The notes under the pieces: generated by a model
What the model was told of the DNA's origin: nothing
Seen by the model: only the letters and a program-made list of their open reading frames with translations
Databases searched by the model: none
Shown: piece by piece, positions 5,655-57,675 of the stretch
Layout of the letters: every line of letters starts with the position of its first letter
Position numbering within the stretch: position 1 is the stretch's first letter
Made by a program: the position numbers and the translations under genes
Assembly (NCBI GenBank): GCA_001824825.1
Contig: MHTK01000006.1
Coordinates: 57,051 to 121,050, forward strand
DNA length: 64,000 nt
Direction of reading: 5' to 3'
DNA from: Candidatus Vogelbacteria bacterium RIFOXYD1_FULL_46_19
GTDB lineage: Bacteria > Patescibacteriota > Minisyncoccia > Phycocordibacterales > XYD1-FULL-46-19

Positions 5655-5671
5655 ATAAATTGGACTTATTT

Positions 5672-5710
5672 CCATCTAAAAACCACCCAGATTGGGTGGT
5701 TTTTAGATGG
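5672..5710 (+). terminator. intrinsic terminator hairpin after the repeat-protein gene
   Basis: ccatctaaaaaccaccc-agat-tgggtggtttttagatgg perfect hairpin with an internal U-run. Confidence 0.6.
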
Positions 5711-5833
5711 AAAATTTTTAAATTACCTACCTCTTATTGTACTAAAATTTTATTAGATTCTAAATAACTTTTACCTTGACTCTCAGTTTTATTTGTTGAA
5801 GTAATAAGTGTACAATTAATTTTAAATACATAT

Positions 5834-8920: not shown

Positions 8921-10066
8921 ATGTCACCACTCTTTCAGTCAAAAATAAAAAATGGGCCCCTGATTGTTTTAGAAATTGGCGGTGGCAGTGTGTCGGCCTT
9001 AGTCTTGGCCGACGAGGGATTACCCGAGCGCTCTTTAGTTTGGTCACGTCGCGAACCGCTAGCGTTTGGCAGTCACGAAGATTTTTCCCAGTACTTTCGC
9101 GACACGCTAAAAGTGTTAGACTCCTTACTCAACCAAATCAATCATTTCCACCTAGGCGAGATGGCGGCCGTTCATTGCCTCCTGGCGTCGCCTTGGCATG
9201 TGGCCGAGAGCCGTATCTTAACAGCTAATTGGCCACAACCCCTGTCTGTTACCCCTAAAATTATTGCCAATATGACGGCTCAAAACTTGGCCCGTCACCA
9301 AGCTCGCTTTAAATCAGATGACTTCGAGTTGGCTTTAATTGACGACGTGATCGTCAAAACAGAACTAGATGGTCGGGTATCTAGCAATGTCGACGGTCAA
9401 AAGGCTAGCCAACTAGCGATTACTCATTTCACCAGCAGTACTGACCGCCGCATCCTACAGAAACTGCGAGAAAAAATTAGCCCCCGACTCCACTATCAAG
9501 ATCCCCGTTTTCACTCCAACTTGTTATCTAATTTTGCAGTTACCAAAGCTGCTCTACCCAACCGCGAGAGTTTTATTTTACTGGATGTGAGTGGGGAGTT
9601 GACTGATGTCACTGTGGTATATAATGACAGCATCAGGGGGTTAGCCTCATTCCCGATGGGTAAATATACTATAGCAAGGATGCTAGCCGAAAAATTAGGC
9701 AGTAACCCGAGTGAGATTTATTCTTCTTTAAAGCTAAAGGCTGAGAAAATGCTGGATTTAAAGCATGAACGAGTGTTAGACCGAGCCCTGGAGCCCTTGC
9801 GCCTAGAGTGGCAATATTTACTGGCAGAAACTTTAAAACCCCTAGAGCGGCCTGGTGAACATTTGCCGGTAGTGGTAATCGGCGATGATACTATTTCTCT
9901 AACCATTGGAGAGTGGGCTAAGTCAAGTGCTACGGACAGGCTAGTTACTCACCCAACGGTAACCGACCATGACTATTATGCCGATCTCTGTCATAACTGC
10001 CGTCCCCAGACCAAAGATGTACCTATTTTAATCTCTTCTTTGTTTGCTAACAAATTTTTGATATAA
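8921..10066 (+). CDS. hypothetical protein with a possible actin-like ATPase fold (FtsA/PilM-like), divergent
   Basis: Two glycine-rich phosphate-like segments, IVLEIGGGSVSALV and ILLDVSGELTDVTVV, spaced as in actin/Hsp70-superfamily proteins. Confidence 0.4.
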   Translation: MSPLFQSKIKNGPLIVLEIGGGSVSALVLADEGLPERSLVWSRREPLAFGSHEDFSQYFRDTLKVLDSLLNQINHFHLGEMAAVHCLLASPWHVAESRILTANWPQPLSVTPKIIANMTAQNLARHQARFKSDDFELALIDDVIVKTELDGRVSSNVDGQKASQLAITHFTSSTDRRILQKLREKISPRLHYQDPRFHSNLLSNFAVTKAALPNRESFILLDVSGELTDVTVVYNDSIRGLASFPMGKYTIARMLAEKLGSNPSEIYSSLKLKAEKMLDLKHERVLDRALEPLRLEWQYLLAETLKPLERPGEHLPVVVIGDDTISLTIGEWAKSSATDRLVTHPTVTDHDYYADLCHNCRPQTKDVPILISSLFANKFLI

Positions 10067-10122
10067 TCAAATAGACTAAATTTTAACCAAATTGGCGTTT
10101 TACTAATTAATACTTAAATATT

Positions 10123-11451
10123 GTGAACGACGACCCTTCATTTCATAAAAAAAGTTTGAGAGAAATTTTACCAAAAGCCGGCGGTCGAGTAGCCCGACGG
10201 CAACCAACTTCTATGATGACCAGTAATACTAACGAAGAGATAGCTCCAGAAAATTCGTTTCCAGCGGATCGAGATCCGATTTTAGCCAAAAGGCGACGCC
10301 CGCGGATGCCCAAGTTTTTAGTCTGGGGAATTGGGCTAATTATTCTCATTATTGCCATTTTCGGTCTAAGTTCTTTCTTTTCGCAAGTAACTATTTTTGC
10401 TGTACCTAAACAAGCTCAAGTAAATATTAATGAGACCATTACCGCTTCTCTCTCCGCGGCAGAAAATGAGCTAGAATTTGGAACTTTCACCAAAACCCAG
10501 ACTGCCAGTGTAGCTGTGCCGGCTACCGGTAGTGAGCAAGTATCTCGTAAAGCCAGCGGCCAAATAACCATTTTCAATGATTTCAGCGATGAGCCTCAAC
10601 TCTTGATTGCTACCACCCGTTTTGAAACAGCCGACGCTAAAATTTACCGAATTAAGGACGCTGTCACCGTACCGGGACAAAAAATTGAAAATGGGCAAAC
10701 TGTGCCTGGTTCTATTACTACCACCGTGGTGGCCGACCAACCCGGTGAAAGCTATAATATTCCAGCGGCCACCTTTACGATTCCCGGTTTTGAAGGTTCT
10801 GCTCGCTACGACAAGTTTTCAGCCAAGTCCCAATCGGCCATGGCTGGCGGCTTTGTCGGTACTGTCCGCAGTGTGGCCGCCGCTGATCAAACTCGAGCCG
10901 AAACAGAATTGCGAACCAAACTTAATGTGGATAACCCGAATCCCGGCAACCTAGAAATTCCCAGCGGCCACATCTTATTTAACGATGCTTTATTTGCCAG
11001 CTTCGATTCAGTTGTGAAGCCTGAAACGACCGGCGAAGAAGTAGAAGTGGTTGGTACCTTAACATTTACCGGTATCTTGTTTGATAAGAATGAGCTGGCA
11101 GGCTATTTAGCCACCAAACACGTACCAGACTATAGTGGCGAGGCGGTAGAAATCACGAATGTAAAAAACCTAACCTTTACCCTGAAGGATAAAGCCGACA
11201 TCAATCCGGCAACGATTCAATCAATTGATTTTGACCTAGAGGGCTCCGCCCTCATGAGATGGCAAGTTGATGAAGAGGCTCTGAAGAGATCACTAGCCGG
11301 CTTTACTAAAAGCAACTTCCAACTGGCTATTGGAGATTTTCCTTCGATAGAAAGCGTTAAATTGAAGTTTATGCCCCCCTGGAATCGAACCATTCCGGAA
11401 GATACTGATAAGATAAAAGTGACCCTAATTGACAATCAAGTACAAGATTAG
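10123..11451 (+). CDS. hypothetical bitopic membrane protein (basic cytoplasmic N-terminus, one TM helix, about 360-aa extracytoplasmic domain)
   Basis: GTG start; TM segment FLVWGIGLIILIIAIFGL; the N-terminal SLREILPK faintly resembles the PilN INLLP motif. Confidence 0.45.
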   Translation: MNDDPSFHKKSLREILPKAGGRVARRQPTSMMTSNTNEEIAPENSFPADRDPILAKRRRPRMPKFLVWGIGLIILIIAIFGLSSFFSQVTIFAVPKQAQVNINETITASLSAAENELEFGTFTKTQTASVAVPATGSEQVSRKASGQITIFNDFSDEPQLLIATTRFETADAKIYRIKDAVTVPGQKIENGQTVPGSITTTVVADQPGESYNIPAATFTIPGFEGSARYDKFSAKSQSAMAGGFVGTVRSVAAADQTRAETELRTKLNVDNPNPGNLEIPSGHILFNDALFASFDSVVKPETTGEEVEVVGTLTFTGILFDKNELAGYLATKHVPDYSGEAVEITNVKNLTFTLKDKADINPATIQSIDFDLEGSALMRWQVDEEALKRSLAGFTKSNFQLAIGDFPSIESVKLKFMPPWNRTIPEDTDKIKVTLIDNQVQD

Positions 11452-11996: not shown

Positions 11997-12377
11997 ATGT
12001 TACGAATCGCGGGTATTAATATTCCAGAAGACAAACGCTTAGAAATCGGCTTAACGGCCATATTTGGAGTGGGACGACCCCAAGCTCACCAAATTTTAAC
12101 CGAATCAAAAGTTGATTTTGGAAAAAAACCCAAGGATTTATCGGCCACCGAGGAAAACGCCATTCGCAAAGCGGTGGAAGAACGAAAAATTGAAGGGGAC
12201 TTAAAGCGCGAGATCAGCCAAAACATCAAACGATTGAAGGACATTAAAAGTTACAGTGGTAGTCGTCATAGTCTAGGTCTACCGGTTAGAGGCCAGCGTA
12301 CCAAGACCAATGCTCGCACCAGAAAAGGCCCAAAGAAAACCATGGGCTCGGGTAAGAAGAAGGTAGACAAGAAGTAA
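11997..12377 (+). CDS. rpsM: 30S ribosomal protein S13
   Basis: MLRIAGINIP...LPVRGQRTKTNARTRKG. Confidence 0.9.
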   Translation: MLRIAGINIPEDKRLEIGLTAIFGVGRPQAHQILTESKVDFGKKPKDLSATEENAIRKAVEERKIEGDLKREISQNIKRLKDIKSYSGSRHSLGLPVRGQRTKTNARTRKGPKKTMGSGKKKVDKK

Positions 12378-12412
12378 TAAATTTTTAAGGAACTATGTGA
12401 TTATAAAAATCT

Positions 12413-12519
12413 CTACCCCGCTCTGCTCCGTTTCTGCCAGTAGGTAGACCCTTTAAAAGGTAAAAGCCAATACTAGTCAGGAGAGCGATAGGCGTCGGCA
12501 ACGGAGCAGAGCGGGGTAG
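12413..12519. repeat. perfect 20-bp inverted repeat (arms 12413-12432 and 12500-12519) around a 67-nt spacer, in the rpsM-rpsK intergenic region
   Basis: ctaccccgctctgctccgtt is the exact reverse complement of aacggagcagagcggggtag. Confidence 0.75.
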
Positions 12520-12554
12520 GGTAAACATTTTCATCGCATACATTATTTTCAATC

Positions 12555-12989
12555 ATGGGAAAAAAACGCATAATTAAGAAATCAGGACACGAAGTGGGAG
12601 CTGGGGCTAAAGCTCGAGCCCTTGGACGTGCTCCGAAGAAAAAAATTGACCGTGGCATTCTTCATGTCCGAGCTACTTACAATAATACCGCCTTACTCCT
12701 AACTGATAGTGCCGGTAATGCTGTTTTGTCATCTTCCAGTGGAGCCTTAGGGTTTAAAGGGTCAAAAAAGGGTACGCCCTATGCCGCTGGTAAAGTGGCC
12801 GAACTTTTAGCAGAAAAAGCTCAGAGTTTTGGCTTAAAAGAAGTGGATGTGATCGTTAAAGGGGTGGGTTCCGGTCGCGAATCATCGGTTCGATCCTTTA
12901 TTACCAAAGGTATTAATATTTCATCAATCAGAGACAAAACCCCGGTTCCCTTTGGTGGTCCAAAACCGAAGAAACCTCGTCGCGTTTAA
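12555..12989 (+). CDS. rpsK: 30S ribosomal protein S11
   Basis: HVRATYNNT.L.LTD..GN......G..GFKGS.K.TPYAA and a C-terminal PKKPRRV. Confidence 0.9.
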   Translation: MGKKRIIKKSGHEVGAGAKARALGRAPKKKIDRGILHVRATYNNTALLLTDSAGNAVLSSSSGALGFKGSKKGTPYAAGKVAELLAEKAQSFGLKEVDVIVKGVGSGRESSVRSFITKGINISSIRDKTPVPFGGPKPKKPRRV

Positions 12990-17317: not shown

Positions 17318-19234
17318 ATGGCAAAAATACTTGGAATTGACTTGGGTACCACCAACTCCGCAATGGCGTATGTGGAAGGTGGGCAACCAAAAATTATTGA
17401 AAACAGTGAAGGAGGCCGCACCACCGCCTCTATTATTGCCGTTTCTAAAGCTGGCGAACGCCTAGTGGGCCTCCTGGCCAAACGCCAAGCTATTACCAAC
17501 CCTCAAAACACTATTTATGGGGTTAAGCGCTTGATGGGACATAAGTTTGAGGACCCCCATGTTCAAAAAGACAAGGACTTAGTGTCTTACAAAATCGAAA
17601 AATCTGATGCTGACGGGGTGTTGGTCACCATGGGTGATAAAAAGTATCGCCCGGAAGAGATTTCGGCGATGATTTTGTCAAAGTTAAAACGTGATGCCGA
17701 AGCTCAACTAGGTGAAAAAATTGAAGAAGCCGTCATTACCGTCCCGGCTTACTTCGACGACTCCCAACGCAAGGCCACTAAAGACGCCGGTGAAATTGCC
17801 GGCTTTAAAGTTCGTCGCATTATTAATGAACCAACCGCAGCCGCCCTGGCTTACGGCTTGAACAAAAAGAAAAATGAACAAGTGGTCGTTTACGACTTCG
17901 GTGGTGGTACCTTTGACGTTTCCGTTTTAGATATTTCCGGTGAAGACGGTGAACAAAGTATTGAAGTAAAATCAACCGATGGGGACTCACATATGGGCGG
18001 GGAGGATATTGACCAGGAAATTATCCAGTGGCTCTTAGCTGAATTTAAAAAAGAGACCGGCTTAGATATTTCCAAAGACCAACTAGCCCTGCAGCGCCTT
18101 AAAGAAGCCGCTGAAAAGGCGAAGCATGAATTATCAGTAGCAGTAGAATCGGAAATTAATATTCCATTTATTACTTCAGACTCCAGTGGCCCTCAGCATA
18201 TGGTCAAGAAAATGACCAGAGCTAAACTGGAAGAATTGGCCGACTCTTATGTGTCTCGCTCGATTGATATTACGAGGCGCGCCGTCGAAGCTTCCGGCCA
18301 CCAGCTCGCTGACATTGATGAAATTATTTTGGTTGGCGGTCAAACCAGGATGCCCGGCATTCAAGAAGCAGTTAAGAAACTATTTGGCAAAGAACCCAAC
18401 CGGTCTATTAACCCAGATGAAGTAGTGGCTATTGGAGCGGCCGTTCAGGCGGGAATTTTCCAAGGCGATGTTAAAGATATTCTACTCTTAGACGTTACCC
18501 CTTTGTCTTTAGGAATCGAAACCTTGGGTGGGGTGGCGACCAAACTGATTGAAAGAAATACCACTATCCCGACATCTAAAAGCCAAGTCTTTTCCACCGC
18601 GGCTGATAATCAAACCTCGGTGGAAGTCCATGTGGTGCAAGGCGAGCGAGAAATGGCAACTGACAATAAAAGCTTGGGACGCTTTATCTTAGACGGCATT
18701 CCACCGTCACCGCGCGGACTACCGCAAGTGGAAGTGTCTTTCGACATCGACGCTAACGGCATTTTGTCAGTTAAGGCTAAAGATAAAACTTCCGGCAAAG
18801 AACAGTCTATTCGCATTGAAGCCCAGTCCTCGTTATCCAAAGAAGACATTGAAAAAATGAAAGCTGAAGCGGAAGCTCACGCGGAAGAGGATAAGAAAAA
18901 ACGAGAACTAGTAGATGTCCGTAACACGGCCGACCAGCTGGTTTACACCACCGGTAAAGCTTTAACTGATGCTGGTGACAAAGTTCCGGCTGAGGTTAAG
19001 ACCACCGTGGAAGAAAAAATCAAGGCTTTACAAGGGGTAAAAGACCAGGACGATCTAGAGGCCATCAAAACCGCCACCAGCGCCTTATCCACCGAAATGA
19101 CTAAAATCGGCGAAGCTATGAGTAAAGCCACACCTGAATCACAAGCTGAAGTTAAACCGGAAAACGGCACCCCAGAGGGAAACGTGCGTGAGGCGGAGGA
19201 GGAAAAAGGGGAAGGTAGTAAGGAAGACAAGTAA
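17318..19234 (+). CDS. dnaK: molecular chaperone DnaK (Hsp70)
   Basis: [18 protein letters not shown] and the full Hsp70 architecture. Confidence 0.95.
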
Positions 19235-19322
19235 TTGTATGACCCCACCCTTTGTTTCAATTAGAAACCAAGGACGGGGTGTAATAAATTATAGTCGCCC
19301 GCTGTCTCCTTAATTTAAAAAT

Positions 19323-20396
19323 ATGTCCAAAGACTACTACAACATTCTAGGGGTTGATAAAAAAGCTTCGACAGAAGATATCAAGCGGCAGTTTCGTAAA
19401 CTAGCCCACAAATATCACCCCGACAAATCCGGGGGGGACGAAGCCAAATTCAAAGAAATTAACGAAGCCTACCAAGTGTTATCCGACGACAAAAAACGCT
19501 CGGAATACGATATGTACGGCAATGTCTTTTCCGGCGGCCAACGTCCCGGGGGTGGCTTTGGTGGTTTCGGCAACGAGGGTTTTGACTTTTCCGGCGCCGG
19601 TGGGGGGCAGGGCTTTGAGTTTGACCTAGGTGATATTTTTGGTGACATTTTCGGTAGTGGCGGACGCACTAAACGGGGTCGCGATATTTCAGTGGATATT
19701 GAAATCAGTTTTGAAGAATCTATTTTTGGCACCGATCGCAAACTCCTGATCAATAAAGTTGGGGCTTGCGATACTTGCCAGGGCAAAGGCGCCGAGCCGG
19801 GTTCTAAACTTAAAACTTGTACCGTTTGTAACGGCAAGGGGAAAATTAGAGAAACCCGTCGCTCTTTCATCGGCTCAGTGGTGGTAAATTCCGTCTGCCA
19901 TACCTGCCACGGCAAGGGTGAGATCCCCGAAAAAGCCTGTACCACTTGTAGTGGCTTGGGTGTACTGAAGAAAAACGAAGAAATCAAAATTAAAGTTCCA
20001 CCCGGTATTGAGTCGGGCGAAATGATTCGTTTTTCTGGTAAGGGTGAAGCTATTCCAGATGGCCAGGCCGGTGACCTTTATGTGAAAATCCGCGTGGAGC
20101 CTCATAAGTTTTGGAAACGAGACGGTAGCGACCTGAAGATGGATCTAAATATTAAATTAACTGATGCTCTACTTGGTTCCAGCTACACGATTAAGACTTT
20201 AGAGGGGGATGATCTCAAGCTAAAAATCCCGGCGGGAATTTCTTTTGGGGAGGTCTTGCGGGTTAAAGACAAAGGGGTACCGATTGATAGTAAACGCCGG
20301 GGCCATCTCCTGATTCGCATCATCATCAACACCCCGCAAAAACTCAATAAAAAAGCCCAAAAACTGGTGGAAGAACTACGCGAAGAGGGGGTTTAG
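19323..20396 (+). CDS. dnaJ: molecular chaperone DnaJ
   Basis: J-domain with HPD, a Gly/Phe-rich region and four CxxCxGxG zinc-finger repeats. Confidence 0.95.
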
Positions 20397-21881: not shown

Positions 21882-21922
21882 AGCCCCTCTCACAGACATA
21901 TGCCTGTGAGAGGGGCTTTTAT
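21882..21922 (+). terminator. intrinsic terminator
   Basis: agcccctctcacag...ctgtgagaggggct followed by tttt. Confidence 0.7.
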
Positions 21923-37970: not shown

Positions 37971-37988
37971 TTTAAATTTTTTCCCATC

Positions 37989-38018
37989 AAAAAAACTGCT
38001 CTTTCGAGCAGTTTTTTT
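37989..38018. terminator. bidirectional terminator between rpmA (+) and rplI (-)
   Basis: aaaaaactgctc-tttc-gagcagttttttt. Confidence 0.7.
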
Positions 38019-38042
38019 GATGGGGTTATTAATTTAAATATT

Positions 38043-57336: not shown

Positions 57337-57348
57337 GGTTATCCACAT

Positions 57349-57386
57349 AAAACTCAACCGCCGGCGGTCGCCGGCGGTTGAGTTTT
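57349..57386 (-). terminator. strong hairpin ending the lysS-side transcript just upstream of the mraZ promoter
   Basis: aaaactcaaccgccggcg-gtc-gccggcggttgagtttt. Confidence 0.6.
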
Positions 57387-57675
57387 ACCCCCTCCCTAAT
57401 CACCAATTACAGCACATCTGTCCCTATCCAAGGTTTAACCTTGGACTCCATTATTACACCACACCAACCACCATCCTGAAGTTTAACTTCGGGATGGGAG
57501 GGAGGGTGGTGTAATATTGCTTATTGGCGTGCCAGAATACCCCGAGGCTTTGCCTCGGGGATAGGAGGCACTAACGACAGGAACGGCGGAGCCGTTTCTT
57601 CTACCAAAAAACCAGCCCTGGTGCCTTCGCCTAATATCCCGCCCCTTTGCCTCGGGGATAGGACGAAGAACTGGT

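What the first reader, a model, noticed from the sequence alone, without database searches (positions are those of the whole stretch)
12413..12519. Perfect 20-bp inverted repeat with a 67-nt spacer inserted between rpsM and rpsK
ctaccccgctctgctccgtt and aacggagcagagcggggtag are exact reverse complements, giving a 20-bp stem with a 67-nt loop inside the highly conserved alpha-operon gene order. Such a long perfect stem is unusual inside an r-protein operon. The candidate explanations are a MITE-like insertion with terminal inverted repeats (no clear target duplication seen), an RNA processing or attenuation structure, or an r-protein autoregulatory site; in E. coli S4 regulates this operon.
Basis: seen in the sequence. 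Interest (0 to 1): 0.5.

Follow-up and report, generated by a model that had tools for sequence, protein, structure and literature searches.

The report
Dispersed hairpin repeat inside ribosomal operon
The perfect hairpin between rpsM and rpsK is real and is one copy of an undescribed family of about 110-225-nt self-folding spacer elements that sit between different genes in related ultra-small (CPR) bacteria; they resemble known miniature palindromic repeats but keep their stems paired through matched changes on both arms.

Summary
Window 12413-12432 and 12500-12519 form a perfect 20-bp inverted repeat, 22 bp with one U.G pair. It is unique in the window, far beyond chance, and fills an rpsM-rpsK spacer of 177 nt, against a median of 27 nt in relatives.

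It is not a private feature of this operon. The whole spacer (12378-12554) is homologous to spacers at five different intercistronic sites in related Paceibacteria (CPR): rpmJ-rpsM, rpsM-rpsK, rpsK-rpsD, rpoA-next gene and dnaK-dnaJ. One genome has three copies in one operon and another has two. Close relatives with 76-91% S11 identity carry it at different sites or not at all.

No Rfam family matches, no ORF is conserved, and I found no target-site duplication or partner transposase.

Each copy keeps a near-perfect stem although the stem sequences differ:
- window vs L096: 5 double changes, 0 single;
- L096 vs L102: 3 double changes, 0 single;
- non-Watson-Crick positions: 9 G.U against 2 A.C.

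Copies lie in the sense orientation and leave an unpaired A/U-rich tail before the next AUG.

Best reading: a new family of MITE/ERIC/bcr1/Correia-like palindromic repeats that is co-transcribed and constrained as RNA. It is probably an RNase III substrate or an mRNA-end stabiliser, but that function is inferred. An r-protein autoregulatory site is not supported.

The parts
12378..12554 (+). Whole rpsM-rpsK spacer; this is the full element as defined by homology to copies at other sites
   Evidence: Covariance model R1 matches 12378-12557 with 142 bits on the + strand and 73.5 bits on the - strand. The spacer aligns end to end with the L096, L102, L013, L107 and L104 spacers. Element-free relatives have a median spacer of 27 nt.
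12394..12401 (+). 5' strand of the outer helix (TATGTGAT); a decayed version of the family's GAGCGAAGCGA...TATAA left flank
   Evidence: MFE structure. Pairs counted on alignment A2, where G23-C182 and A24-U181 are invariant. Left-flank HMM hit at 12384-12423.
12411..12432 (+). 5' arm of the inner helix (22 nt; the perfect 20-mer is 12413-12432); the base ACCCCGC is conserved across the family
12433..12499 (+). 67-nt apical region, predicted to form three small hairpins; moderately similar to L096 and L102, and replaced outright in other copies
   Evidence: Fold; alignments.
12500..12521 (+). 3' arm of the inner helix; the base GCGGGGT followed by purines is conserved across the family
12533..12540 (+). 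3' strand of the outer helix (ATCGCATA)
12541..12554 (+). Unpaired A/U-rich tail (CATTATTTTCAATC) that abuts the rpsK ATG; it has no Shine-Dalgarno motif
   Evidence: The last 14 nt are unpaired in the MFE structure. The tail is conserved in L096, L102 and L104 right up to the ATG. None of 28 window genes has an SD-like motif.
11997..12377 (+). rpsM (S13), the upstream cistron; tandem stop codons TAA TAA at 12375-12380
   Evidence: Pfam PF00416; sequence.
12555..12989 (+). rpsK (S11), the downstream cistron
   Evidence: Pfam PF00411.
19235..19322 (+). Possible short or degenerate relative in the window's dnaK-dnaJ spacer: hairpin GACCCCACCC..GGACGGGGTG, followed by a flank that is the reverse complement of L102's left flank
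   Evidence: Weak R1 hit at 19211-19325, 21 bits, E = 0.04. Sequence comparison. DnaK and DnaJ confirmed by Pfam. Membership is uncertain.

Best explanation
The hairpin is one copy of a previously undescribed family of non-coding palindromic intergenic repeats in Paceibacteria (Patescibacteria/CPR; Vogelbacteria- and Yonathbacteria-like lineages). In kind it is closest to bacterial MITE-like elements such as ERIC, bcr1 and Correia/CREE.

A unit has five parts: a short head after the upstream stop codon; a GC-clamped outer helix (ancestrally AACGAGCGAAGCGA..TATAA / TTATA..TCGCTTCGCTCGTT); a long, almost perfect inner helix with a conserved base (ACCC.G / C.GGGT); a freely replaceable apical module; and a 14-18-nt unpaired A/U-rich tail that ends at the next start codon.

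Copies have been gained, lost or moved among intercistronic spacers of the alpha r-protein operon and the dnaK operon on a short evolutionary timescale (shown). Because they lie inside operons in the sense orientation, they are transcribed as part of the polycistronic mRNA (inferred from position). There they fold into a hairpin of about -45 to -75 kcal/mol.

Selection, or arm-to-arm correction, keeps the helix paired (shown by compensated changes). The G.U over A.C excess and the stronger + strand folding point to the RNA as the constrained molecule (suggestive).

Likely consequences, all inferred. (i) The fold takes the insert out of the way, so the upstream stop and the downstream start stay about as far apart as in an element-free spacer, and the SD-less A/U-rich start region stays single-stranded; this would explain why such an insert is tolerated in an essential operon. 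(ii) A 20-28-bp perfect duplex stacked on a second helix is a canonical RNase III substrate or a 3'-exonuclease block, so the element probably creates a processing or stability boundary between rpsM and rpsK-rpsD-rpoA.
For: Family and multi-site distribution. nhmmer and covariance-model hits were found at five sites:
- rpsM-rpsK: window 142 bits, L096 153 bits, L013 128 bits;
- rpsK-rpsD: L107 104 bits, L013 43 bits, and L074b, which was recognised by eye;
- rpoA-next gene: L013 42.5 bits;
- rpmJ-rpsM: L074 40 bits;
- dnaK-dnaJ: L102 163 bits, L104 67 bits.
L096 (rpsM-rpsK) and L102 (dnaK-dnaJ) are 68% identical over the whole spacer, including the apical part and the tail.

Patchy occupancy. 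L096 is 85-91% identical in S11 to L099, L100 and L107, and 88% in S13 to L102. Yet the element is at rpsM-rpsK in L096, dnaK-dnaJ in L102, rpsK-rpsD in L107, and absent in L099, L100 and L106. Among 80 species-level relatives the rpsM-rpsK spacer has a median of 27 nt, and only L013 and L074 carry family copies. Relatives of L013 (L230, L232) have none.

Non-coding and unannotated. No ORF is shared among copies. There is no Rfam family at gathering score in the window or the loci, and only sub-threshold miRNA-hairpin noise in a sensitive scan.

Structural constraint:
- 82% of cells are paired on alignment A2 against 40-49% when partners are slid; 14 pairs have changes on both sides, a value reached by 4 of 500 shuffles; 10 of 16 pairs of the inner helix are compensatory.
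- Window vs L096: 13 identical pairs, 5 double changes, 0 single changes.
- L096 vs L102: 3 double changes, 0 single (sequences).
- Stems are 159 Watson-Crick, 9 G.U, 2 A.C and 3 other.
- The + strand folds better than the - strand in 8 of 11 spacers.
- Spacer identity between window and L096 is 65%, while four-fold synonymous sites in the flanking genes are 36% identical.
- A strain variant (L003) turns the U.G pair at the stem base into C-G.

Geometry. In 6 of 10 copies the unpaired tails sum to 22-33 nt, against a median element-free spacer of 27 nt. The last 14 or more nt before the AUG are unpaired. None of 28 window genes has an SD-like motif.

The L013 genome encodes RNase III and RNase R next to the operon.

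Precedents. MITEs fold into long stem-loops as RNA and many are co-transcribed; bcr1 keeps its structure through compensatory changes (PMC3184786). Correia elements bind RNase III and are cleaved or protected by it (PMC2649163).
Against: No target-site duplication could be defined, because the flanks are conserved between copies at different sites. No transposase or IS with matching ends was seen, and no transposition event was caught.

Copy number per genome is low in what could be sampled: 1 clear copy in the 64-kb window, and 3 in 16.6 kb of L013. All copies lie in two operon types and in one orientation. Copies in one genome have quite different stems. None of this is typical of a recently active MITE; it fits a functional module equally well.

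Sampling is biased, because most loci were fetched around rpsK. Whole genomes could not be scanned.

The orientation signal is modest, because the element is nearly palindromic and the models were trained on + strand copies.

Perfect arms could be maintained by DNA-level hairpin correction rather than by selection on RNA. The G.U vs A.C excess (9:2) is only suggestive.

RNase III cleavage, co-transcription and any effect on expression are untested. No rnc gene lies within the window.
Confidence: 0.55

Rival explanations
1. A dedicated, lineage-specific cis-acting RNA module rather than a selfish repeat. In this reading the element is an intercistronic processing, stability or coupling element, possibly bound by a specific protein at its conserved base and flanks. 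It would have been recruited repeatedly, or duplicated by recombination, into highly expressed operons (alpha operon, dnaK operon) of SD-less Paceibacteria. Its job would be to set mRNA boundaries or to keep stop and start codons adjacent.
For: All 10-11 copies lie between co-directional genes of two highly expressed operon types, in the sense orientation, and span stop codon to start codon. No copy lies elsewhere in about 180 kb of wider sampling: the 64-kb window and the 14-21-kb loci L096, L100, L102, L104, L106 and L108.

The base and flanks are strongly conserved between distant species. L013b and L074b share 11 of 12 basal pairs and the left flank at only 62% S11 identity, while their apical parts are unrelated. 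The spacer is conserved well above synonymous sites. Stems show compensated changes and a G.U bias. The unpaired tails restore the native spacer length.
Against: Occupancy among very close relatives is patchy, including complete absence (L099, L100, L106). A needed regulator would not be expected to move between rpsM-rpsK, rpsK-rpsD and dnaK-dnaJ within one clade. The apical region is not conserved. The sampling bias toward the alpha operon inflates the apparent site specificity. No partner protein was identified.
Confidence: 0.25
2. An independent small-RNA gene, or an internal promoter plus a 5'-terminal protective hairpin. A -10-like box in the left flank would start transcription at the first base of the stem.
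For: A TATAAT-like hexamer (TATAAT, TATAAA, TATATT, TATGTT, TAGATT...) lies 4-8 nt upstream of the first stem base in every copy. Correia elements are known to create promoters at their ends (PMC2649163).
Against: The consensus scan finds no promoter inside the window element, and no -35 is present. The box is simply the A/U-rich half of the outer helix, whose partner GATTTTTATA lies on the 3' side. No terminator follows the hairpin. Covariation in the outer helix implies that the flank is itself transcribed and paired.
Confidence: 0.06
3. A ribosomal-protein autoregulatory site (S4, S11 or S13 binding an rRNA mimic), as in the E. coli alpha operon.
For: The element lies inside the alpha operon, upstream of rpsK-rpsD. 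It is also upstream of rpsD in L107, L013 and L074.
Against: The same element lies between dnaK and dnaJ in L102 and L104 and after rpoA in L013. It is absent in most relatives. The interior is replaceable. No Rfam r-protein leader matches, including Alpha_RBS and the S4 leaders. Three copies occur in one operon.
Confidence: 0.03
4. An intrinsic terminator or attenuator that separates rpsM from rpsK.
For: The stem is very stable and GC-rich at its base.
Against: No U-run follows the stem on the + strand (GGGTAAACATTTTC), and the terminator scan does not call it. The 67-nt structured interior is unlike the window's real terminator-like hairpins, which have 0-8-nt loops. It sits between genes whose products are needed in equal amounts.
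Confidence: 0.03

Closest known systems
bcr1 repeats of the Bacillus cereus group (about 155-bp MITE-like elements)
   Same: Similar size. Non-coding and transcribed. Distribution is not conserved between related strains. The cruciform or hairpin RNA structure is maintained by compensatory base-pair changes (PMC3184786).
   Different: bcr1 has 5-bp direct-repeat target duplications and many copies per genome. Here no duplication could be defined and only 1-3 copies per sampled region were seen. There is no sequence similarity. The host is a CPR bacterium with a tiny genome.
Correia / CREE (NEMIS) elements of Neisseria
   Same: Palindromic units of 100-160 bp with inverted-repeat ends and a core. 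They are co-transcribed with neighbouring genes, and their hairpin RNA binds RNase III and is cleaved or protected by it. They can carry promoter-like boxes at their ends. Occupancy differs between close strains (PMC2649163; PMC3184786).
   Different: CREE have a TA target duplication, an IHF site and hundreds of near-identical copies. Here the copies are few and strongly diverged, each with its own perfect stem. RNase III action is only inferred.
ERIC (enterobacterial repetitive intergenic consensus, about 127 bp)
   Same: Imperfect palindromes located in transcribed intergenic regions, including within operons. They affect the stability of the upstream mRNA (PMC3184786).
   Different: ERIC copies share one consensus sequence and carry TA flanks. 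Here only the base and flanks are conserved, and the distal stem and apical region vary.
REP / REPIN elements mobilised by RAYT transposases
   Same: Extragenic palindromes that form hairpins. REP doublets (REPINs) form hairpins of about 100 nt, and their classical role is stabilising the 3' end of mRNA (PMC3116915; PMC3733652).
   Different: REPs are 20-40 bp, carry a conserved GTAG or CGTC tag and occur in tens to hundreds of copies. Here GTAG is present only in the window copy; the others read GGGTGGAG or GGGGTGAAG. No RAYT was seen.
Intervening sequences (IVS) of 23S/16S rRNA genes, excised by RNase III (own knowledge, not tested here)
   Same: Sporadically distributed inserts of about 100-200 nt inside essential, highly expressed transcripts. 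They form a long basal helix with a variable apical part and are tolerated because the helix is processed or folded away.
   Different: IVS lie inside rRNA helices, not between protein cistrons. No sequence relation was tested.

Membership tests
MITE (miniature inverted-repeat transposable element) | Terminal inverted repeats enclosing a short non-coding core, generally under 200-400 bp (PMC3184786) | tested here: met
   Units are 117-225 nt. The left flank is approximately the reverse complement of the right flank (GAGCGAAGCGA..TATAA / TTATA..TCGCTTCGCTC), and there is an additional inner inverted repeat. No ORF is conserved.
MITE (miniature inverted-repeat transposable element) | Target-site duplication (direct repeats) flanking each copy | tested here: inconclusive
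   A candidate ATAAGA(T/A)AA flanks L013a. However, the flanks are conserved between copies at different sites, and the DNA is AT-rich. No filled/empty pair was close enough to define the ends.
MITE (miniature inverted-repeat transposable element) | Multiple dispersed copies and variable occupancy of orthologous sites (evidence of past mobility) | tested here: met
   10-11 copies at 5 sites in 7 genomes; 3 copies in L013 and 2 in L074. Sites differ among relatives with 85-91% r-protein identity. Genome-wide copy number was not measurable.
MITE (miniature inverted-repeat transposable element) | Ends matching an autonomous IS or transposase that could mobilise it | not testable with these tools
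   No transposase lies in the window or the loci near copies.
MITE (miniature inverted-repeat transposable element) | Folds into a long stem-loop at the RNA level | tested here: met
   MFE of -45 to -76 kcal/mol for 8 of the 11 spacers folded; the shortest two are weaker (L104 -28.8, window dnaK-dnaJ -22.0). z = -8.1 for the window copy.
REP / REPIN | 20-40-bp palindromic unit with a conserved GTAG or CGTC tag at one end, high copy number, associated RAYT | tested here: not met
   GTAG is present only in the window copy and the tag is not conserved. The units are much longer. No RAYT was seen (not exhaustively searched).
Ribosomal-protein autoregulatory leader (e.g. S4 alpha-operon site, Rfam Alpha_RBS and S4 leaders) | Match to a curated covariance model, a conserved protein-binding structure, and consistent placement upstream of the regulated r-protein gene across relatives | tested here: not met
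   There is no Rfam hit at gathering score or in the sensitive scan. The element also occurs in dnaK-dnaJ and rpoA-downstream spacers. It is absent in most relatives.
Intrinsic (Rho-independent) terminator | Compact GC-rich hairpin with a short loop, immediately followed by a U-run | tested here: not met
   The interior is 67 nt, there is no U-run, and the scan does not call it.
RNase III processing site | About 20 bp or more of uninterrupted dsRNA in a transcribed region | tested here: met
   The window copy has 22 bp (20 Watson-Crick pairs in a row). The other copies have 14-28 bp, stacked on an outer helix. An RNase III gene is present in the L013 genome.
RNase III processing site | Actual staggered cleavage in the stem, dependent on RNase III | not testable with these tools
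   No transcript-end data are available here.
Conserved structured RNA (cis-regulatory) | Covariation that supports the helices across homologues | tested here: met
   14 of 34 pairs have both-side changes, the covariation score is 0.271 against 0.178 for shuffles (0 of 500 reach it), and slid controls give 0.075-0.147; 8 double and 0 single changes in the two closest comparisons. Caveat: a DNA-level palindrome-correction mechanism could mimic this.

The most novel reading that the evidence does not exclude
The family is not junk. In this reading it is a domesticated, perhaps RNA-guided or protein-recognised, intercistronic 'punctuation' module of SD-less Paceibacteria. The conserved clamp and base (GAGCGAAGCGA...ACCC.G / C.GGGT GGAG...TCGCTTCGCTC) would be a recognition site for a dedicated factor or for RNase III. 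The hairpin would fold the insert out of the ribosome's path, so that termination-reinitiation across 170-225 nt still works, a fold-mediated bypass. Its movement between spacers would retune cistron stoichiometry in minimal genomes that lack most regulators.
Probability: 0.12. Interest if true: 0.7.

Novelty: new member of a known kind. Interest (0 to 1): 0.45.

Why it matters
CPR/Patescibacteria have tiny, streamlined genomes, and essential operons are usually free of repeats. A self-folding element that nevertheless colonises the spacers of the alpha r-protein and dnaK operons is therefore informative. It keeps a perfect stem by matched changes on both arms and leaves the SD-less start region free. 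This shows what kind of insertion such operons tolerate.

It also gives a concrete, testable handle on two open points in organisms that cannot yet be cultured alone: how polycistronic mRNAs are processed, and how internal cistrons are initiated.

Practically, the family is absent from Rfam. It inflates these intergenic spacers from a median of 27 nt to about 120-225 nt (117-225 nt in the clear copies). The covariance model built here can annotate it.

Tried and rejected
Arm searches:
- Arm 20-mer in the JGI metagenome collection: one hit (L084). Only one arm matched, inside a coding region of an unrelated higher-GC organism, so it is chance.
- 16-mer of the arm in IMG/VR: 11 single-arm chance hits.
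- Flank motif GAGCGAAGCGAN{1,8}TATAA in IMG/VR: 120 or more hits, none matching the family HMMs.

Known RNA families:
- Rfam at gathering score on the window and on L108, L074 and L107: only one tRNA.
- Sensitive Rfam scan of 12350-12580: only miRNA-precursor models that match any long hairpin, far below gathering score (33.7 against 100 bits).

Other readings considered and set aside:
- SRP RNA, 6S RNA, Y RNA, tRNA-like, retron msr/msd and integron attC. None has a model hit, the element is multi-copy, no RT or integrase is present, and there are no R-box ends. These comparisons rest on my own knowledge.
- Internal promoter: the scan is negative.
- Small protein on either strand: no ORF is shared between copies.

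Limits of the family:
- The other long rpsM-rpsK spacers (L023, L069, L081, L058) also form whole-spacer hairpins, but neither the covariance model nor the HMMs relate them to this family.
- L029, L056 and L094 regex hits were treated as chance or as unrelated hairpins.
- Extra DNA from the L013 contig (L108) and from its relatives (L230, L232) gave no further copies.

Literature searches for CPR repeats or MITEs found nothing relevant.
Full report
**1. The observation**

Window 12413-12432 (CTACCCCGCTCTGCTCCGTT) and 12500-12519 (AACGGAGCAGAGCGGGGTAG) are exact reverse complements separated by 67 nt. The helix continues for two more pairs, one of them U.G, giving 22 bp (12411-12432 with 12500-12521). 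An 8-bp outer helix (12394-12401 with 12533-12540) closes nearly the whole spacer.

The neighbours are S13 (11997-12377) and S11 (12555-12989). The gene order is infA-rpmJ-rpsM-[177 nt]-rpsK-rpsD-rpoA-rplQ.

The arm occurs nowhere else in the window even with three mismatches, and no shuffle reproduces it. The fold is 8 standard deviations more stable than shuffles. It is the only long inverted repeat in the 64 kb with a large interior; the rest are tight terminator-like hairpins. The same sequence is found in three independent public assemblies, one with 2-3 substitutions.

**2. The organism and the normal state of the spacer**

S11 relatives are all Patescibacteria (CPR) of the Paceibacteria/Parcubacteria group. 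The closest named genome is a Candidatus Vogelbacteria MAG.

In 80 species-representative genomes the rpsM-rpsK spacer is short. The 73 short spacers have a median of 27 nt and quartiles of 10-33.5 nt. The 177 nt here is therefore an insertion-sized excess.

No Rfam family reaches its gathering score in the window. A sensitive scan of the spacer returns only miRNA-precursor models that match any long hairpin.

**3. Homologues at the same site**

L096 is a Hainich groundwater genome with 81% S11 identity to the window. It has a 179-nt rpsM-rpsK spacer that aligns end to end with the window's at 65% identity. Its arms are TTACCCCGCCCTACTTTGATACT / AGTATCAAAGTAGGGCGGGGTGA.

Over the 18 comparable stem pairs, 13 are identical, 5 differ on both sides with pairing kept, and none differs on one side only. 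Four-fold synonymous sites of rpsM, rpsK, rpoA and rplQ are only 36% identical between the two genomes. L013, a more distant genome (65% S11 identity), has a 186-nt spacer with a 26-28-bp stem that shares the base TACCC.GCTC / G.GC.GGGT.

**4. Homologues at other sites: the key result**

An HMM of these spacers, and then a covariance model (R1: 34 pairs in an outer and an inner helix), found the same element in other intercistronic spacers:
- dnaK-dnaJ in L102 (Vogelbacteria), 163 bits, 68% identical to L096's rpsM-rpsK copy including the apical part and the tail;
- a shorter version at dnaK-dnaJ in L104, 67 bits;
- rpsK-rpsD in L107, 104 bits;
- rpsK-rpsD and rpoA-next gene in L013, 43 and 42.5 bits, giving three copies in one operon;
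- rpmJ-rpsM in L074, 40 bits, plus a second L074 copy at rpsK-rpsD recognised by its left flank and stem base.

The window itself has only the one clear copy. Its dnaK-dnaJ spacer (19235-19322) gives a weak 21-bit hit.

Shared anatomy:
- a short head after the upstream stop codon;
- an outer helix, ancestrally AACGAGCGAAGCGA..TATAA paired with TTATA..TCGCTTCGCTCGTT; this has decayed to GC-to-AT variants in the Vogelbacteria-like group while still pairing;
- an inner helix with the conserved base ACCC.G / C.GGGT, followed by purines;
- a variable apical module;
- an A/U-rich tail that runs up to the next ATG.

**5. Mobility or turnover**

Identity matrices show that L096 groups with L099, L100, L102, L106 and L107 at 80-91% in S11 or S13. 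The window lies outside that cluster at 76-82%.

Within that tight cluster the element is at rpsM-rpsK (L096), dnaK-dnaJ (L102) or rpsK-rpsD (L107). It is absent from all sampled spacers of L100 and L106, from the rpsM-rpsK spacer of L099 and L103, and from every alpha-operon spacer of L104, which carries only the short dnaK-dnaJ copy. Relatives of L013 (L230, L232) have short spacers and no copy.

This pattern needs gains, losses or moves on a short timescale. It is the signature of a dispersed repeat.

I could not define a target-site duplication. The flanks are themselves conserved between sites, and the best candidate is ATAAGA(T/A)AA around L013a. I found no transposase.

**6. Constraint on the hairpin**

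On the six-sequence alignment A2, 82% of cells pair, against 40-49% when the partners are slid by 1-3 columns. Fourteen pairs change on both sides, a value reached by 4 of 500 shuffles. The covariation score is 0.271 against 0.178 for shuffles, reached by 0 of 500. Ten of the 16 inner-helix pairs are compensatory.

L096 vs L102 show three double changes and no single change in the stem (sequences). With symmetric scoring, stems across nine copies contain 159 Watson-Crick pairs, 9 G.U, 2 A.C and 3 other mismatches. A G.U on the + strand would be an A.C mismatch on the - strand. The + strand folds more stably than the - strand in 8 of 11 spacers. The strain variant L003 converts the basal U.G pair to C-G.

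L013b and L074b lie at the same site in genomes with only 62% S11 identity. They share the left flank and 11 of 12 basal pairs, but their apical modules are unrelated. No ORF is shared.

Together these results indicate that pairing is maintained, most simply on the sense RNA. The caveat is that hairpin-templated correction of DNA palindromes could also keep the arms complementary.

**7. What it probably does (inferred)**

The copies lie between co-directional cistrons, so they should be transcribed with the operon.

None of 28 window genes has a Shine-Dalgarno-like motif; the start regions are A/U-rich. In every copy the last 14 or more nt before the AUG are unpaired. In 6 of 10 copies the 5' and 3' unpaired tails left outside the whole-spacer hairpin sum to 22-33 nt, which matches the native spacer length. 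Folding would therefore take the insert out of the way and keep the upstream stop and the downstream start close together. This is a plausible reason why the insert is tolerated in an essential operon.

A 20-28-bp perfect duplex stacked on a second helix is the textbook substrate of RNase III and also a block to 3' exonucleases. The L013 genome encodes RNase III and RNase R close by. Correia elements are known to bind RNase III and be cleaved or protected by it, and ERIC/REP-type repeats alter the stability of the upstream mRNA (PMC2649163; PMC3184786).

I therefore commit to this reading: a MITE-like palindromic repeat that acts, at least passively, as an intercistronic processing or stability hairpin. 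Cleavage and any expression effect are untested.

**8. Rivals**

- A dedicated functional module rather than a selfish repeat remains quite possible. Its support is the exclusive sense orientation, the restriction to two operon types across about 180 kb of wider sampling, and the strong conservation of base and flanks. Sampling is biased toward the alpha operon.
- A promoter or sRNA gene is suggested by a TATAAT-like box 4-8 nt before the stem. That box is the A/U half of the outer helix, there is no -35, and the scan is negative.
- An r-protein autoregulatory site is contradicted by the dnaK-dnaJ and post-rpoA copies, the replaceable interior and the absence in most relatives.
- A terminator is contradicted by the lack of a U-run and by the large interior.

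**9. Comparison with known families and novelty**

The closest known systems are bcr1 (compensatory changes, transcribed, about 155 bp), Correia/CREE (RNase III, promoter boxes, variable occupancy), ERIC (intra-operon palindromes) and REPINs.

Of the defining MITE features, inverted-repeat ends, small non-coding size, RNA hairpin, multiple copies and variable occupancy are met. Target duplication is inconclusive, and a partner transposase could not be tested. The REP/REPIN tag is not met.

There is no sequence or model match to any described family, and no literature on such repeats in CPR.

I rate it a new member of a known kind. Its unusual traits are occupancy of the whole spacer, a perfect but copy-specific stem, sense-only orientation, and location in essential operons of a minimal genome.

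**10. Verdict**

The finding is real and more interesting than a lone hairpin, but it is not a new kind of system. Interest 0.45. Confidence in the best explanation 0.55.

Noticed in passing
window 19235-19322: The dnaK-dnaJ spacer (88 nt) holds a small hairpin, GACCCCACCCTTTGTTTC..GAAACCAAGGACGGGGTG. It is followed by AAATTATAGTCGCCCGCTGTCTCCTTAATTTA, which is the reverse complement of the left flank of L102's dnaK-dnaJ element. It may be a shrunken family member (R1 21 bits, E = 0.04).
   Followed up: partly
L096:16608-16723: The dnaK-dnaJ spacer of L096 carries a different, unrelated 16-bp perfect hairpin (ACTCCTGTTTTAGGG...CCCTAAAACAGGAGT) with a structured interior. Several hairpin families therefore seem to colonise the same spacers.
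   Followed up: no
L023:2365-2500, L069:2347-2500, L081:2377-2500, L058:2403-2500: Four other Paceibacteria have long rpsM-rpsK spacers (98-154 nt). Each folds into a hairpin that spans the whole spacer, but their sequences are unrelated to this family by covariance model and HMM. Whole-spacer hairpins may be a recurrent theme.
   Followed up: partly
window, 20 nt upstream of 28 ATG-start genes: No gene has a GGAG/GAGG/AGGA motif upstream, and the leaders are A/U-rich. This genome appears to initiate translation without Shine-Dalgarno pairing.
   Followed up: partly
window 12375-12380 and 12387-12400: rpsM ends in tandem stop codons, TAA TAA. An SD-like AAGGA followed by ATG-TGA (a start-stop mini-ORF) lies in the left flank. 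L096 has ATG-AAG-TGA at the same place, but the other copies do not.
   Followed up: no
L108:11613-11832 and L108:8463-8802: The infA-rpmJ and post-rpsP spacers of the L013 genome hold perfect GC-rich hairpins of 17-23 bp (GACAACGGGGTACCGTTTGCC.., AAAAACCCCAGAC..) next to promoter-like TTGCAT..TAGAAT and TGGTATAAT boxes. This genome is unusually rich in intergenic structure.
   Followed up: no
L108:1059-1309: The spacer after the RNase III gene contains a long hairpin, TGCGAGTACTCGAAGCAATC...GATTGCTTCGAGTCCTCGCA. Its CGAAGC..TATAAG motif faintly resembles the family's outer-helix clamp (R1 9.4 bits only).
   Followed up: no
window 5669-5713, 37983-38024, 57348-57387, 21882-21917: Perfect or near-perfect 18-21-bp hairpins with 0-4-nt loops lie at gene ends. 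They are probably intrinsic terminators and are unusually long.
   Followed up: no
window 8921-11451; L108:8803-11347; L096:6339-8876: Two conserved genes without any Pfam domain (about 380-400 aa and 440-450 aa) always precede infA-rpmJ-rpsM in these Paceibacteria, in place of the spc operon.
   Followed up: no
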